A stretch of 42,879 nucleotides of DNA, taken from UHGV virus genome UHGV-0301147; one strand, written 5' to 3'. This document shows positions 340 through 6,859 of this stretch, in pieces; within the stretch, counting starts at the first letter, position 1, and every line of letters begins with the position of its first letter. The notes under the pieces are model-generated. The model saw nothing but the letters and a program-made list of their open reading frames with translations. It was not told where the DNA came from and made no database searches. This DNA is from a virus. The position numbers were made by a program, and so were the translations under genes.

Positions 340-759
340 TTAAAACGCGGTTGGGTGAATTCCATATTCACCGTTTGATCCATACCCTATGCGATACATC
401 AAAGTACGATCTGTTGTCACCTTGCCCGCTTGTTCGCTCATGCCACCACCACATACTCCTTTTGGCCACGCGCTGAAGACATGATCACCAATCGTTGGGT
501 ATACAACGACTTTCTGAGCTGTACCTAAATCTGCCACCTCTTTACCATCAACATAAACACGGGAAAAACACGCGCTTCCAAAGAAACCCGAGTCACGCTT
601 GATGATCACCTCTCCCGTACCGTCTCGTTTTTCGAGTAACGCGGTACTGATAATTTGTTTTTCAGGAACAGGAGTGGCTTGTTCATTTGAGACAGGTTTT
701 GTAGCACAACCGACAAGAGCAAGCATAATCCCACAGGCAAGACCATTTTTAACGACCAT
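340..759 (-). CDS. Putative lipoprotein (cargo gene at prophage left end)
   Basis: 139-aa ORF with signal peptide and lipobox (LVGC); sits between tail gene D and the att core; no family recognised. Confidence 0.55.
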   Translation of the reverse strand: MVVKNGLACGIMLALVGCATKPVSNEQATPVPEKQIISTALLEKRDGTGEVIIKRDSGFFGSACFSRVYVDGKEVADLGTAQKVVVYPTIGDHVFSAWPKGVCGGGMSEQAGKVTTDRTLMYRIGYGSNGEYGIHPTAF

Positions 760-1972: not shown

Positions 1973-2197
1973 TCAATCCCATAATTGCGTTTCTTTTTTA
2001 ACCGGCTCTGGTTCGATATCTGGTAAAACAATTTTTTCTCCAGCACGAAACACGGCACACATATCCGTTACGCCGTAATTCGAAACCTGATATAAAACAG
2101 TCTCTGTCGTTTTTGACGCTCTCCCGTAGACCGCAAGGCAGATCTGATCGAGACGGTCACCGTCCCGTGTAGTGTATGTAATCATTTGGGGCCCCAT
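1973..2197 (-). CDS. Tail protein X (LysM-like)
   Basis: 74-aa ORF with the phage tail X family signature, immediately upstream of the D-like gene. Confidence 0.8.
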   Translation of the reverse strand: MGPQMITYTTRDGDRLDQICLAVYGRASKTTETVLYQVSNYGVTDMCAVFRAGEKIVLPDIEPEPVKKETQLWD

Positions 2198-2358
2198 TAA
2201 TTAAAAGGATTTCATAATGAGAATTAATTTTAGTAGTCGGAGAGGTATTAGTATTTCGGCGTCAAAAAAAATACCATCAGGTTGTTTTACATTTATGTTC
2301 GTAGTTTTTTTTATTATTTTTATACTTGTTAAGTGCTCTGGTAGCGCTTGATTTTGTA

Positions 2359-2787
2359 TTAATCTAGCGAAGCTCCATAATATTCGAGCGTGAGTGAAAA
2401 GTCCTGCGATTTAGGTGTTCCGCCCATCAAAAAGCTGTTTTGCGTTTCAGTTAGTTCTCGCAGCACCCAGTACCCTTTCACCTCCCCGGTCCCCAGCACT
2501 AGCTGCTGGGGTTCTCCCGTGTTCCCGAGCGCTCGCAAATCTGTCAACAGGCCGACGCCGCACCCGTCAAGAAATAAAGCGTTTATCTTTCCATCGATAG
2601 TAATTGTGGGGTTCGGTCGTCCGGTTATCTGCAACGCGTCGTTTTTCCCGAATCGTGTTTGCTGAGCCCAGCGCCAGGCGTCACTACGTTGCAGTTTGTT
2701 GTACGCTACTGTTGATATAGCAAAAATGAAATCACCCAGGCCGAGCATGATATCCTCAGCACCGTTTATTGCATCACTCATTGTCAC
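2359..2787 (-). CDS. Tail protein, P2 gpU family
   Basis: 142-aa ORF directly downstream of the tape measure gene, matching P2 T-U-D order. Confidence 0.8.
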   Translation of the reverse strand: MTMSDAINGAEDIMLGLGDFIFAISTVAYNKLQRSDAWRWAQQTRFGKNDALQITGRPNPTITIDGKINALFLDGCGVGLLTDLRALGNTGEPQQLVLGTGEVKGYWVLRELTETQNSFLMGGTPKSQDFSLTLEYYGASLD

Positions 2788-4424
2788 CCCGCCGCCGCTG
2801 GTTTATCAAACATCGCGCCACGATTGTACGAACTCGCAGCCTGTCTCAGTCCATCGAGCACCCCCGACGCTGCAGATTGTTGTATTGACTGCGGATCTGT
2901 CGCACCGACAATATTGATTTCGATTTTATTGTTTTGCTCCGGCGCAGGTGTCGAGACTGCCTGCTTCAACGTATCAATATTTAACGTCGACGAATCCAGT
3001 GCTGCAGGCGCGGTATTTTTATTTACCATCCCGGATAATGGATTAACAAACGCGAGCATTGATTCTGCCTGAGATTTTGCCTGTTCTTGCCGTTCTGGAT
3101 GCCGCATATTTTCGACAGCCTCTTCGGCTTTTGCCTTCGCAATATTATCAGCAGTCAATCCAGCGTTCGGTGAATATTTACCTCCCGAATCCATAAACTC
3201 TTGATATGCCCGATTATATTCGTCATTATAAGTTTTCTGTTCTTCATCTGATTTTTCATCCGGAATAAGCCACTCCAGTTTCTTTACGACAGCCCATATA
3301 ATCTTCCCGAATTTGACGCAACCTTCTCCAAAATTGACGATGCCATCCCACATTTTTTTCATATTTTCTGGTTTTACCCACTCAGTAATTGTGCTGACAA
3401 AACCACCCTGATTATCCTTAAACCAGGATGTAAATGTTTCACGTACTGAGTCAAACGTCGGCGCGAGTTCCCCCCCGATTTTACCGAGTGTATCTGCAAG
3501 TCCCGACGTAATAGAGCCCCACAGATTTGTCACTGATACATGCGCACGCGCCGCCCCTTCCGCACCCTCTTTTGTTAACAAATTCGACTTTTGCGCGTCA
3601 GACATTGTCTGTTCCCAGCTTTTACCCGTCGCCTTCATATACGTCATGATCTTATTAGCCTCGCCCCCCATGAGCTGGTCAGCGAGGCTCGCCGCTTGCT
3701 TCTCATCTTTCATTTCAGAGATGCGACGCATAACCTCATTAAACTGTTTTTCCCGATCCCAGCCAGCCATTCGTTTTTTCGTCAGGCCAATTTGAAATAA
3801 CATGGGATTCAGGCTTTTTTCGTTTCCGATTTCGCCGATTTTATTTGTAAGTTCTTCAGACAAATCCCCGATATTTTCGCCGTTCAGGCCCGCGGCTTTA
3901 CCAATATTTTCCCACGCAGCGTATTTTTCGACGCCAACGCCGTAGGACTTCGCCAGACCGAGTTTTTCTGACGTCTCTGCATTCATTGCCAGCGCACCAG
4001 CTGCAGCACCGCCAATGAGCCCTGCCGCGCCAAGTGTCCCCCATTTGATACCCCGCCCCGTAGCCCTCACCGCACCTGCGGCGGCTCGTCCGCCCCATTT
4101 TGCAGCTCCTTTTGCGCGACCCGTCCACTTCTCCAGCTGCTGTTTTTTAGCAAGTTGAGTATTCAGCGCCTCCTGGTCCTGCGTTGTCGCTTTTATCCGA
4201 CGGTCCAGCTTTTGATACTGAGCAGATAAATCAGAAACGTCTTTACCTGCCAGTTTCATTGCTGCGATTTTGTCTTTTAATTTATCCTGACTTTTCGTTA
4301 ATTTCCCGACAGTAGACGACGTCTGCCGAATCGCATCATTGAGTTCTGTTGTACCGCGACGAAACGACGGGTCTATTCGCCCACCGAATACAACCTGCGT
4401 TTTAAAGTTTTGAGAAATAGCCAT
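2784..4424 (-). CDS. Tail tape measure protein
   Basis: 546-aa Ala/Gly/Lys-rich coiled-coil-type protein between the assembly chaperone and gpU. Confidence 0.75.
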   Translation of the reverse strand: MAISQNFKTQVVFGGRIDPSFRRGTTELNDAIRQTSSTVGKLTKSQDKLKDKIAAMKLAGKDVSDLSAQYQKLDRRIKATTQDQEALNTQLAKKQQLEKWTGRAKGAAKWGGRAAAGAVRATGRGIKWGTLGAAGLIGGAAAGALAMNAETSEKLGLAKSYGVGVEKYAAWENIGKAAGLNGENIGDLSEELTNKIGEIGNEKSLNPMLFQIGLTKKRMAGWDREKQFNEVMRRISEMKDEKQAASLADQLMGGEANKIMTYMKATGKSWEQTMSDAQKSNLLTKEGAEGAARAHVSVTNLWGSITSGLADTLGKIGGELAPTFDSVRETFTSWFKDNQGGFVSTITEWVKPENMKKMWDGIVNFGEGCVKFGKIIWAVVKKLEWLIPDEKSDEEQKTYNDEYNRAYQEFMDSGGKYSPNAGLTADNIAKAKAEEAVENMRHPERQEQAKSQAESMLAFVNPLSGMVNKNTAPAALDSSTLNIDTLKQAVSTPAPEQNNKIEINIVGATDPQSIQQSAASGVLDGLRQAASSYNRGAMFDKPAAAG

Positions 4425-4814
4425 CGATTTTCATGACCTCGTTTACATAGAAATTAAAAACCCGGTACGGCAGGTCCATTTGCGTATCGGGCGGGATGGC
4501 AAGTTTTTTCGCAATAAACGGAATCAGAATAACTATATCTGATGTCGGTCTTTCGGGGGCTTTACCAGTTCGTTAAACGCGGCCTCCATTTGATCGTAAT
4601 CGCACACAGGCAGTGCATATAAATCCTCACGCTCCAGATTTGCCAGGCGCGCCAGCATTGTCGCTGTCCGCTCTTCAAGACCACTTTTATCGTTACTGAA
4701 CATAATGCGGTCGCGTAATTTTGGTTCGCGAATAGTAATTGTATCGCGGCTCTCACCCTTAATAATAAACGGGCGAGAGAGCGTAATAGTCATACTGTCT
4801 AATAATGATTCCAT
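4402..4814 (-). CDS. Predicted E+E' fusion produced by programmed -1 frameshift near the 3' end of the chaperone gene
   Basis: The -1 frame opens after a stop at 4573-4575, runs ~55 codons without stops across the 108-bp gap and ends at 4402-4404, overlapping the tape measure start at 4424; G GTA AAG lies in the shift window. Confidence 0.5.
4533..4814 (-). CDS. Tail assembly chaperone (P2 gpE-like)
   Basis: 93-aa ORF between the tube gene and the tape measure gene. Confidence 0.7.
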   Translation of the reverse strand: MESLLDSMTITLSRPFIIKGESRDTITIREPKLRDRIMFSNDKSGLEERTATMLARLANLEREDLYALPVCDYDQMEAAFNELVKPPKDRHQI

Positions 4815-4826
4815 TTTATTTGCCTT

Positions 4827-5339
4827 TTAATATACATGGAGAATACGAGCAACGCCCGCAAGAACGTCAACACCATTAATTACTCGTTTCATTTTTGCAG
4901 GATGAATCTCGTAAATAACTTTTCCATTTTGAACTCGTTTATAATAGCTCGGCGCAATCGTTACTGATTGCCCAACTGCTGATTTTGAATCAGTCCCCTG
5001 CGCGTCATCAGTAATCGCCGTAATAAGCCCCTCATATGTATCAATACGTTCAAAATTGACACCGTAATTGTCAGTATATGCACTTCGAATTTCGAACCTT
5101 GTTTTAGCACCTGGTATTAATCCAAAATACCCCATCACACCAGAATCGGAGCCAGAGACTTTAAAACTGGCTGACATTTTCTCCATTCCTCCGTCCAGAG
5201 TGATAGCTGTATCCATCGCGCCTGTTTTAAACTCGTCTTCGATTATTTTCATATCGACTGGAGTATATTCAGTACAATTTAAAACCCGTTCGCCCTGCAC
5301 GAATAGCGCAAACGCGCGGTAAGCGTTGCTGTCTGACAT
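4827..5339 (-). CDS. Contractile tail tube protein (gpFII-like)
   Basis: 170-aa ORF directly downstream of the sheath gene. Confidence 0.8.
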   Translation of the reverse strand: MSDSNAYRAFALFVQGERVLNCTEYTPVDMKIIEDEFKTGAMDTAITLDGGMEKMSASFKVSGSDSGVMGYFGLIPGAKTRFEIRSAYTDNYGVNFERIDTYEGLITAITDDAQGTDSKSAVGQSVTIAPSYYKRVQNGKVIYEIHPAKMKRVINGVDVLAGVARILHVY

Positions 5340-5356: not shown

Positions 5357-6859
5357 TCAGGCTGCTTCTTTAAAAAGGGAGGCCAGTGCTTCAACTGTAT
5401 AGTCATTATTAATGCGGTACATTAACGTAATTGTTTGTGCCGGAGATTTCGGACCAAAATCAACATTAATATAAAGATTACCCGCAGCCAGGCTTTCTTT
5501 TGTATTCAGCTCACTGTCTAACCACGCACGCCCTCCGTTAATCGCACCCTGCTCCTCTAATTTGTGCAGATATGCGTTTATCGACTCGACAACGTCTGTT
5601 CCGAGGTGCAGGTCTATCGGACGAACAATAAAATCGGTCATCATTGCCCGGGCTATAGAATCCTCAATTACGTCAGCTGTTCGACGAACGCTCTCGAAAG
5701 ACCATTGCGGGCTGAGGCTGCACAAATAGTTACCCCAGTGTCTGAACCCGTCATAGCGAATAATCGTGCTGACCTGGCTGGCATTCAGCAGGTTCGCTGT
5801 GCAGTTTGTCTCACCAATAATAAAATCGTCGACTTGTTCAAGCCCTGTAACTCCGTAGATATTCTGGTTCGATTTACTCCACCAGAATCCTTTTTCATTA
5901 TCAATTCGGGCTCGTAAACCAGCAGCGATAGCTGAATACGGACGAGATAACCCACTGACATCACTCGTAGAATAAACGCGAGGTCGCAACAACTCAGCGC
6001 GTCCGCCGAGTTTTTGCCTGCGATTCACAACGTCTGCAGGGGTAGCAGCGCGCGGAGAGTCGATATAACACACTCCCCGGAGTTTATTTGCAACCACTTC
6101 AAGCTGAGCCGCTATTTCGTCTCGTGCGCTGTAATCCGGCGCTATAATAATTCGCGGGGTAACTTCGTTAATTTGCGCTGACGTCAAAAGCGAATTAATT
6201 CCGGCGATAACATTTTCGCTCATATCAGCGTCGTCGCTACTCTCTACAACGCGAACAACAACGATTAATGCATCAGTCTGATTTAAAATATCAGAAATAG
6301 CGGGGGGCAGAGTCCCGTATTTCCCGAGCAGGGCGGCTTTCTTCTGACTACCTGCAATTAATACAGGAGAATTAATCGGGAATGCGTCATCTGTTCCACC
6401 TGATAAATTTGTTGGTGGAAGACCAAATACTGTACCGGTTCCGGAATGCTCGCCACCAAAAGTTACATTAATCCACTCTCCGTCTGTTTTCCCCTCTCTA
6501 TATTCCTGATTCTGATCATACATTTTGCCGGGGGTCATTCCCGGCTCCGTAATCATCGTTAATTTTTTTGTTCCGTCGGGCAGCGTGCTATATCCTGGAG
6601 TGCAGGTTGCGCCCTCAACTGTCATATCTACAATTTCAACAACCCATTTGTTCCCGTCGCTGCCCGGTGATACAGTTGAAAACTCAACGAGATTATCAGC
6701 CAGCGATGAGCCCCACGTTAATGATGCTCTCGTAGCCTCCGCGACGTTCGTCGCAGTACCAACAATCCCAATCACGGAAATATCTACTGTGTTGATCTCT
6801 TTTGTGCCGTCGTCGTATTCGAGCGTGCGAATACCGTGCAAAAAATTAGTTACGCTCAT
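5357..6859 (-). CDS. Contractile tail sheath protein (gpFI-like)
   Basis: 500-aa ORF with sheath-family character, in sheath-tube-chaperone-tape measure order. Confidence 0.85.
   Translation of the reverse strand: MSVTNFLHGIRTLEYDDGTKEINTVDISVIGIVGTATNVAEATRASLTWGSSLADNLVEFSTVSPGSDGNKWVVEIVDMTVEGATCTPGYSTLPDGTKKLTMITEPGMTPGKMYDQNQEYREGKTDGEWINVTFGGEHSGTGTVFGLPPTNLSGGTDDAFPINSPVLIAGSQKKAALLGKYGTLPPAISDILNQTDALIVVVRVVESSDDADMSENVIAGINSLLTSAQINEVTPRIIIAPDYSARDEIAAQLEVVANKLRGVCYIDSPRAATPADVVNRRQKLGGRAELLRPRVYSTSDVSGLSRPYSAIAAGLRARIDNEKGFWWSKSNQNIYGVTGLEQVDDFIIGETNCTANLLNASQVSTIIRYDGFRHWGNYLCSLSPQWSFESVRRTADVIEDSIARAMMTDFIVRPIDLHLGTDVVESINAYLHKLEEQGAINGGRAWLDSELNTKESLAAGNLYINVDFGPKSPAQTITLMYRINNDYTVEALASLFKEAA

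What the first reader, a model, noticed from the sequence alone, without database searches (positions are those of the whole stretch)
4402..4814. Programmed -1 frameshift producing an extended tail assembly chaperone
The chaperone gene and tape measure gene are separated by 108 bp. The -1 frame opens 12 codons before the chaperone stop and stays open for ~55 codons to a stop at 4402-4404 overlapping the tape measure start. The in-frame readthrough is closed by TGA at 4431-4433. The only slippery-like element is G GTA AAG, not a canonical X XXY YYZ heptamer.
Basis: partly seen in the sequence, partly recalled or inferred. Interest (0 to 1): 0.4.

Follow-up and report, generated by a model that had tools for sequence, protein, structure and literature searches.

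The report
Frameshifted tail chaperone of E. coli prophage
A P2-type prophage tail module almost certainly makes a longer version of its tail assembly chaperone by a programmed -1 ribosomal slip, which is ordinary for tailed phages, but the slip site (G GTA AAG) is unusual, strictly conserved and unannotated.

Summary
On the minus strand a 93-codon chaperone gene (4814..4533, Pfam PF10109) lies between the tail tube gene and the presumed tape measure gene (4424..2784). A 56-codon -1 frame (4572..4405, stop 4404..4402) spans the 108-nt gap.

An open frame of that length is not significant alone (about 0.1 by chance). Comparison with relatives makes it real.
- All eight lineages down to about 45% identity keep a 55-56 codon -1 ORF with conserved residues.
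- Third positions of that frame vary most (30/34, against 16 and 10).
- Synonymous changes make up 0.49 of codon differences, against 0.11 and 0.08 in the other frames.
- No lineage has a conserved start codon in that frame.

TGGTAAAG is invariant in every relative, including two adjacent synonymous sites. The neighbouring G CCC CCG is not conserved. The best explanation is a P2 gpE/gpE+E'-type frameshift giving a 137-aa fusion. The single tRNA-Lys would slip from AAG to AAA (the A_AAG motif known from IS3), with partial P-site re-pairing.

No downstream RNA structure is supported. An upstream GGAGG is conserved, but in this window it lies 16 nt away, outside the published 9-14 nt range.

This is a new member of a known kind. 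It is unannotated by PGAP in the two E. coli records inspected, out of 453 genomes that carry the locus. Interest is low to moderate.

The parts
4533..4814 (-). Tail assembly chaperone gene (gpE analogue), 93 codons plus stop TAG at 4535..4533.
   Evidence: ORF list and translation. Pfam PF10109 Phage_TAC_7, E = 5.2e-16, and phrog_166 'tail protein', E = 2.4e-24. PGAP names it 'phage tail assembly protein'.
4560..4566 (-). Proposed -1 slip site G_GUA_AAG. The P site holds Val84 GUA and the A site Lys85 AAG, so it contains the A_AAG tetramer.
   Evidence: TGGTAAAG is invariant in all relatives examined. Only 5 of 36 amino-acid-invariant degenerate codons of the gene keep a single codon in all 8 lineages, and GTA and AAG are two adjacent ones. 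In several lineages the -1 frame opens only 2 codons before it.
4402..4572 (-). The -1 frame open stretch (E' analogue): 56 sense codons 4572..4405 and stop TAA 4404..4402. The part translated after the slip is 4560..4405 (52 codons).
   Evidence: Translation. Conserved in length and sequence in all lineages. Variable columns by codon position are 16/10/30 of 34. The synonymous fraction is 0.49, against 0.11 and 0.08 in the other frames. There is no conserved start codon.
4402..4814 (-). Predicted frameshift product gpE+E' analogue, join(4814..4560, 4560..4402), 137 aa (...AFNELVK|APERPTSDIVILIPF...YFSKL).
   Evidence: Constructed. The same architecture is annotated for P2 (E 91 aa, E+E' 142 aa) and for the distant PF10109 relatives Burkholderia phage Mica and Achromobacter phage Mano.
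4583..4587 (-). GGAGG, a Shine-Dalgarno-like sequence 16 nt upstream of the heptamer. It is a possible 5' stimulator (inferred, uncertain).
   Evidence: It is the strongest, or joint strongest, anti-SD binding site of the whole chaperone gene in 8 of 9 sequences, at 13-16 nt from the heptamer. TGGAGG is invariant in most lineages. The spacing in this window lies outside the 9-14 nt range reported to stimulate -1 shifts (PMC5009743).
4516..4550 (-). Weak potential hairpin 9 nt downstream of the slip site (core CGGAA/UUCCG in relatives). It is not supported as a selected structure.
   Evidence: 66% of cells are paired, against 35-55% for slid controls, but covariation is no better than in shuffles. 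RNAalifold finds no consensus hairpin. Single-sequence z-scores range from -2.2 to +0.5.
2784..4424 (-). Gene in the tape measure (gpT) position, 546 aa. Its first 23 nt overlap the end of the -1 ORF.
   Evidence: ORF list. It has no Pfam or NCBIfam family and matches only phrog_3654 'unknown function'. The tape measure assignment rests on synteny with P2: FII, E, E+E', T, U, then D, with an X-family gene (PF05489) between U and D here that is not at that position in P2.
4827..5339 (-). Tail tube gene (P2 FII family), immediately upstream of the chaperone gene.
   Evidence: PF04985 Phage_tube, E = 8.4e-23.

Best explanation
This is the gpE/gpE+E' pair of a P2-type contractile tail module in an E. 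coli prophage.

Most ribosomes translate the 93-aa chaperone and stop at TAG 4535..4533. A minority slip back one base when Val84 GUA is in the P site and Lys85 AAG is in the A site (G_GUA_AAG, 4566..4560). They then read 52 more codons in the -1 frame and end at TAA 4404..4402, just inside the next gene. The result is a 137-aa fusion.

The slip is driven mainly by the single E. coli tRNA-Lys, which pairs better with AAA than with AAG. This is the A_AAG motif used by IS3. The P-site tRNA-Val can keep two of its three pairs on GGU.

By analogy with lambda gpG/gpGT and P2 gpE/gpE+E', the shared N-terminal domain would coat the tape measure protein. The rare C-terminal extension would recruit tube subunits. 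Neither protein would end up in the virion.

Shown here: the ORF anatomy, membership of the chaperone family, the coding signature of the -1 frame, the lack of a start codon of its own, and nucleotide-level invariance of the heptamer.

Inferred: that the shift is ribosomal, its exact site, its efficiency, and the function of the extension.
For: Anatomy and family:
- The ORF anatomy was verified.
- The chaperone matches PF10109.
- The module order is P2-like: sheath, tube, E, T, U, X, D.
- P2 itself has the same layout, with E' overlapping the start of T (PMC3091744).

Conservation of the -1 frame:
- The 55-56 codon -1 ORF ends at the same position in all 8 lineages down to about 45% identity.
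- Third-position variation dominates in that frame, and the synonymous fraction is 0.49 against 0.11 and 0.08.
- The first possible start codon in that frame is at codon 15-41, at different places in different lineages. Conserved residues lie upstream of it.

The slip site:
- TGGTAAAG is invariant, while nearly all other synonymous sites of the gene vary.
- The alternative G CCC CCG is not conserved.
- A_AA.G is the most shift-prone tetramer in E. coli (PMC4066793).

Annotated precedents: distant PF10109 relatives carry annotated frameshift products.
Against: No protein evidence exists.

The heptamer is not X_XXY_YYZ. The P-site re-pairing has a central G.A mismatch.

In reporter assays A_AA.G alone was barely above background and needed a strong pseudoknot to reach 5.6% (PMC4066793). 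No downstream structure is supported here. The upstream GGAGG is 16 nt away in this window, outside the published 9-14 nt range.

The extension does not match the P2 E' family PF06528.
Confidence: 0.85

Rival explanations
1. The -1 ORF is translated on its own, from an internal start codon, as a small separate protein. Some annotations of related loci treat it this way.
For: The record of Hafnia phage yong2 annotates the tail of its -1 ORF as a separate 'hypothetical protein'. A 40-aa fragment starting at an internal Met of a relative exists in the protein collection (P0028).
Against: No start codon is conserved. The first ATG/GTG/TTG is at codon 30 in the window and at codons 15, 22, 32, 36 or 41 in other lineages. 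Conserved residues (D10, I11, P16, K20, L22, I24, P25, P26) and the codon-position pattern extend upstream of these.
Confidence: 0.04
2. The shift happens elsewhere in the overlap, for example at G CCC CCG (4560..4554), or by transcriptional slippage rather than ribosomal slippage.
For: The window has a run of five C right after the heptamer. The permitted slip window is 13 codons long in this phage.
Against: The C run is broken in close and distant relatives (TCCCCG, CACCCG, ATCCCG, ACGCCG, CCGCCG), which still keep the -1 ORF. No homopolymer of the length known to support transcriptional slippage is present; runs of 9 A or T are cited in PMC5009743. Nothing else in the overlap is invariant except positions explained by dual coding.
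Confidence: 0.06
3. The 108-nt gap is a non-coding spacer conserved for regulation of the downstream gene, and the open -1 frame is coincidental.
For: An open frame of this length has a chance probability of about 0.1. PGAP and the phage records annotate nothing there.
Against: The substitution pattern has a period of three in the -1 frame only. The amino acid sequence is conserved between relatives whose chaperone proteins are only about 45-60% identical, while third positions are largely saturated. The stop of the -1 frame is at the same position in all lineages.
Confidence: 0.02

Closest known systems
Phage P2 gpE / gpE+E' (-1 frameshift at T_TTT_TTG)
   Same: The gene order is the same: tube FII, E, E' overlapping the start of T, then U and D. 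The sizes are similar: 93 and 137 aa here, 91 and 142 aa in P2. The N-terminal domain is in the same Pfam family, PF10109. As in P2, no downstream RNA structure is found (PMC3091744).
   Different: The slip site is G_GUA_AAG, not the canonical T_TTT_TTG. The extension does not match PF06528. Overall sequence similarity to P2 E+E' is not significant. The sheath is about 500 aa here, against the 390-391 aa annotated for P2-like Burkholderia phages, and the T-position protein has no recognised family.
Phage lambda gpG / gpGT (-1 frameshift at G_GGA_AAG)
   Same: The logic is the same: a chaperone plus a rare C-terminally extended form, encoded between the major tail gene and the tape measure gene. 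The A-site codon is the same, AAG read by tRNA-Lys. The heptamer differs at one base only (GGGAAAG versus GGTAAAG). The lambda slip-site sequence is from my own knowledge; the ratio and function are from PMC5009743.
   Different: In lambda the P-site tRNA-Gly re-pairs fully (GGA to GGG). Here tRNA-Val re-pairs with a central mismatch. Lambda is a siphovirus with an unrelated chaperone sequence family.
IS3 transposase frameshift (A_AAG tetramer plus downstream pseudoknot)
   Same: It uses the A_AA.G motif, in which only the A-site tRNA-Lys re-pairs cognately. This is the most efficient tetramer in E. coli (PMC4066793).
   Different: IS3 depends on a strong 3' pseudoknot. No supported 3' structure is found here.
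Annotated frameshifted 'tape measure chaperones' of Burkholderia phage Mica and Achromobacter phage Mano
   Same: They are PF10109 relatives (28-30% identity) in the same position, with an annotated -1 frameshift product of similar size.
   Different: They use canonical heptamers, A_AAT_TTT and G_GGT_TTT.

Membership tests
Tail assembly chaperone with programmed -1 frameshift (lambda G/GT, P2 E/E+E' type) | The gene pair lies between the major tail (tube) gene and the tape measure gene. | tested here: met
   The tube gene (PF04985) is at 5339..4827 and the chaperone at 4814..4533. A 546-aa gene in the T position at 4424..2784 is followed by genes matching the gpU, X and D families. The tape measure identity rests on synteny only.
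Tail assembly chaperone with programmed -1 frameshift (lambda G/GT, P2 E/E+E' type) | The upstream ORF belongs to a recognised tail assembly chaperone family. | tested here: met
   PF10109 Phage_TAC_7, 58.9 bits against a cut-off of 25.
Tail assembly chaperone with programmed -1 frameshift (lambda G/GT, P2 E/E+E' type) | An overlapping -1 ORF without its own start extends the chaperone and is conserved as coding sequence in relatives. | tested here: met
Tail assembly chaperone with programmed -1 frameshift (lambda G/GT, P2 E/E+E' type) | A canonical X_XXY_YYZ slippery heptamer lies in the overlap. | tested here: not met
   The only conserved candidate is G_GUA_AAG. It has the A_AAG tetramer, but the P-site triplet is not XXY.
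Tail assembly chaperone with programmed -1 frameshift (lambda G/GT, P2 E/E+E' type) | Both the short and the frameshifted product are made, in a fixed ratio, and both are needed for tail assembly. | not testable with these tools
   This needs protein detection and genetics.
Pfam PF06528 Phage_P2_GpE (the E' extension of P2) | Sequence match of the -1 encoded extension to the family profile. | tested here: not met
   hmmscan gives no hit at E <= 10 for the window's extension, while P2 E' scores 78 bits. hhalign of the extension alignment against P2 E' gives probability 0.6%. Only a shared hydrophobic-x-P-P pattern is visible. Similarity to the extension of Hafnia phage yong2 is weak (E = 8e-4).
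IS3-type A_AAG frameshift signal | An A_AAG tetramer in the zero frame. | tested here: met
   GTA_AAG at 4565..4560 is invariant in all relatives.
IS3-type A_AAG frameshift signal | A stimulatory pseudoknot or hairpin a few nucleotides downstream. | tested here: inconclusive
   A weak hairpin is possible in most lineages, but there is no covariation and no alifold consensus. Pseudoknots were not searched systematically.
dnaX / IS911-type 5' Shine-Dalgarno-stimulated -1 frameshift | An SD-like sequence 9-14 nt upstream of the shift site. | tested here: inconclusive
   GGAGG is conserved and is the best anti-SD site in the gene. It lies 16 nt upstream in this window and 13 nt upstream in some relatives. 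The published range is 9-14 nt. The motif is also partly fixed by the encoded Glu-Ala/Glu.

The most novel reading that the evidence does not exclude
G_GUA_AAG may be a genuine, previously undescribed class of bacterial -1 slip site. In it the P-site tRNA-Val (cmo5UAC) tolerates a central mismatch, and no 3' RNA structure is needed. It might be helped by an SD-like GGAGG at an unusually long distance. The sister clade (Hafnia yong2, Citrobacter Chris1) has Val GTT followed by TTT at nearly the same place. This hints that 'Val codon plus shift-prone tetramer' is a recurrent solution in this chaperone family. If the efficiency were several percent without a stimulator, the rules derived from reporter assays (tetramers near background without a pseudoknot) would need extending.
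Probability: 0.3. Interest if true: 0.45.

Novelty: new member of a known kind. Interest (0 to 1): 0.3.

Why it matters
The finding fills an annotation gap. The prophage is present in 453 of 5426 complete E. coli genomes, including ST131 strains. In both RefSeq records inspected and in the feature lists of the phage and E. coli hits, no gene is annotated for the extended chaperone.

The extension is essentially absent from protein databases. A search of 1.8 billion representatives found only one 40-aa fragment.

The locus also gives a natural, strictly conserved example of a non-canonical slip site built on A_AAG. Motif-based predictors that require XXXYYYZ-like patterns are likely to miss it. 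It would be a convenient test case for how much P-site mismatch E. coli ribosomes tolerate. It does not change the general picture of tail assembly.

Tried and rejected
- G CCC CCG was rejected as the slip site because it is not conserved.
- A downstream stimulatory hairpin was tested. My first count used a wrong register. The corrected count showed 66% pairing but no covariation. RNAalifold found nothing adjacent to the site.
- The 137-aa single-ORF proteins P0001 and P0002 in Logan assemblies looked at first like natural in-frame fusions. Their junctions differ, and many other frame-broken variants of the same gene occur (P0003, P0005, P0016, P0021, P0024, P0027). I therefore treat them as indel noise.
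Relatives were obtained instead through the look-up of encoding contigs and a viral-contig scan.
- phmmer of the extension against 1.8 billion representatives gave only a fragment and a spurious repeat protein.
- Matching the extension to P2 E' failed.
- The AlphaFold model was moderate for the chaperone domain and poor for the extension (pLDDT 66 overall). The PDB fold search gave no significant hit. The HK97 tail assembly chaperone 2ob9 appeared only at E = 2, so no weight is placed on it.
- Literature searches for GGTAAAG and GGUAAAG as a frameshift site returned only unrelated papers.
- The control on open -1 frames after long ORFs is confounded by neighbouring genes.

Full report
**What is in the sequence**

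All genes of this region are on the minus strand. In order they are:
- a tail sheath gene, 6859..5357 (PF04984/PF17482);
- a P2 FII-type tube gene, 5339..4827 (PF04985, E = 8e-23);
- a 93-codon ORF, 4814..4533, that matches PF10109 'Phage tail assembly chaperone proteins, E, or 41 or 14' (E = 5e-16);
- a 108-nt gap;
- a 546-codon gene, 4424..2784;
- genes of the gpU, X and D families.

The same DNA occurs in 453 of 5426 complete E. coli genomes as a prophage next to yecA/tyrP, and in four induced E. coli myophage records.

The two RefSeq records I inspected annotate the chaperone as 'phage tail assembly protein' and the next gene as 'hypothetical protein'. They annotate nothing in the gap. The feature lists of the other E. 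coli hits show the same gene names.

**Checking the observation**

- The -1 frame is closed by TAA at 4575..4573.
- It then stays open for 56 codons and ends at TAA 4404..4402, 23 nt inside the next gene.
- G GTA AAG is at 4566..4560, in the register P site = Val84 and A site = Lys85.

Two details need correcting.
- The zero frame is closed again already at TGA 4526..4524.
- A second slippery-looking string, G CCC CCG, follows the heptamer directly.

An open frame of this length is not significant alone. The chance is roughly 0.12 for the 44 codons beyond the overlap (inference). A control on other ORFs of the window was confounded by neighbouring genes.

**Comparative evidence**

Homologues of the chaperone were found by protein search. 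Their loci were fetched, and a scan of viral contigs with an alignment added more distant ones. Together they give eight lineages, with chaperone identity from 97% down to about 45%.

All of them share four features.
- The layout is the same.
- A gap of about 105-108 nt is present.
- A -1 ORF of 55-56 codons ends at the same position.
- The -1 frame encodes a conserved sequence: ..DI[IV]ILIP[FY]..K.L.IPP..Q...PYRVFNFYV.E..K..G.

The part of the gap that codes in no other frame gives three results.
- Variable alignment columns fall 16, 10 and 30 (of 34 each) on codon positions 1, 2 and 3 of the -1 frame.
- Synonymous differences make up 0.49 of codon differences in that frame, against 0.11 and 0.08 in the other two.
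- The first possible start codon of the -1 ORF lies at codon 15 to 41 depending on the lineage, downstream of conserved residues.

The stretch is therefore translated, and it can only be reached from the chaperone frame.

**Where the shift occurs**

The shift must happen between the upstream -1 stop and the zero-frame stop. In several lineages the -1 frame opens only two codons before the AAA of GGT AAA.

Within this window the only invariant element is TGGTAAAG. Of 36 codons of the chaperone gene that encode an invariant amino acid with a degenerate code, only five use one codon in all eight lineages. The adjacent Val GTA (fourfold degenerate) and Lys AAG are two of these five. A third, CCG two codons downstream, is explained by dual coding.

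G CCC CCG is replaced by TCCCCG, CACCCG, ATCCCG, ACGCCG or CCGCCG in relatives. It is therefore not the site.

No homopolymer long enough for transcriptional slippage is present.

**Mechanism**

The conserved bases fit a ribosomal -1 shift.
- The third base of GTA supplies the A that lets the A-site tRNA-Lys move from AAG to AAA.
- The preceding G lets the P-site tRNA-Val keep its first-position pair on GGU. Its cmo5U wobble base can read U. Only the middle position is mismatched. This step rests on established knowledge of E. coli tRNAs and is an inference here.

A_AA.G is the most shift-prone tetramer in E. coli. It reached 5.6% with the IS3 pseudoknot but was close to background without a stimulator (PMC4066793). 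I therefore looked for stimulators.

A hairpin 9 nt downstream (4550..4516) can form in most lineages. It shows no covariation, no RNAalifold consensus and unremarkable folding energies. This matches reports that P2-type E+E' sites lack downstream structure (PMC3091744).

Upstream, GGAGG (4587..4583) is the strongest anti-Shine-Dalgarno site of the whole gene in 8 of 9 sequences. It lies 16 nt from the heptamer here and 13 nt in some relatives. The stimulatory range reported for -1 shifts is 9-14 nt (PMC5009743). It is also partly fixed by the encoded amino acids. I regard it as a possible stimulator, not a demonstrated one.

A low efficiency would be adequate. Lambda needs about 1 fusion per 30 chaperones, and P2-type phages two- to threefold more (PMC5009743).

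**Comparison with known systems**

The closest system is P2 gpE/gpE+E'. It has the same gene order, similar sizes (91 and 142 aa against 93 and 137 aa), an extension that overlaps the start of T, and the same Pfam family for the shared domain.

The differences are as follows.
- The slip site is T_TTT_TTG in P2.
- The extension here does not match PF06528 by hmmscan or hhalign. It shares only a hydrophobic-x-P-P pattern with P2 E', plus weak collinear similarity to the extension of Hafnia phage yong2.

The heptamer differs by one base from lambda's G_GGA_AAG (my own knowledge).

Distant PF10109 relatives with annotated frameshift products use canonical heptamers: Mica has A_AAT_TTT and Mano has G_GGT_TTT.

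The nearer relatives yong2 and Chris1 have GTT_TTT, that is a Val codon followed by the U_UUU tetramer, at almost the same aligned position.

The extension is nearly absent from protein databases. Only a 40-aa fragment turned up among 1.8 billion representatives.

A structure prediction gave a moderately confident beta-hairpin plus helices for the chaperone domain and a low-confidence helical extension. No PDB match was significant.

**Verdict**

The feature is a new, unannotated member of a very well known kind. The one unusual point is a strictly conserved non-canonical slip site, G_GUA_AAG. I found no report of this heptamer as a frameshift site in the searchable literature; that is absence of evidence only.

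My confidence that a -1 frameshift product is made is about 0.9. My confidence that the slip is at G_GUA_AAG is about 0.8. Interest is low to moderate.

Noticed in passing
window 2198-2358 (between the gpU-like gene 2787..2359 and the X-like gene 2197..1973): This is an AT-rich gap of about 160 nt with a 44-codon ORF on the opposite (+) strand, 2217..2351. The ORF has a very hydrophobic C-terminal half and no Pfam hit. Relatives L004 and L005 carry an opposite-strand superinfection immunity gene (PF14373) at exactly this position. tblastn found no similarity between the two.
   Followed up: partly
window 2784-4424, minus strand: The gene in the tape measure position (546 aa) matches no Pfam or NCBIfam tape measure family. 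It matches only phrog_3654 'unknown function', and PGAP calls it hypothetical. Its role is assigned by synteny only. It is much shorter than P2 gpT (815 codons, 2448 nt).
   Followed up: partly
L031 (Hafnia phage yong2) 1489-1910; L033 (Citrobacter phage Chris1) 1429-1856: This sister clade (about 40% identity) has the same architecture, with the -1 ORF overlapping the next gene by 23-26 nt. At nearly the same aligned position it has GTT_TTT (a Val codon plus the U_UUU tetramer) instead of GTA_AAG. The yong2 record annotates the tail of the -1 ORF as a separate hypothetical protein.
   Followed up: partly
proteins P0001, P0002, P0003, P0005, P0016, P0021, P0024, P0027: Public assemblies (Logan, ENA, NCBI) contain many frame-broken versions of this chaperone gene. 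Two of them are 137-aa 'fusions' that mimic the frameshift product but have different junctions. They look like indel errors, not natural in-frame fusions.
   Followed up: partly
window about 4516-4497, minus strand (positions 51-70 counted from the first base of the heptamer at 4566): RNAalifold proposes a 7-bp hairpin inside the extension coding region, about 44 nt downstream of the slip site and present in several lineages. It is too far away to act as a conventional stimulator. Covariation was not tested.
   Followed up: no
window 340-759, minus strand, and the left end of the window: A 139-aa ORF without any family match lies between the gpD-like gene and the chromosomal yecA/tyrP genes seen in L001. 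It is likely cargo at the prophage end. The prophage occupies this site in 453 of 5426 complete E. coli genomes, among them ST131 strains.
   Followed up: no
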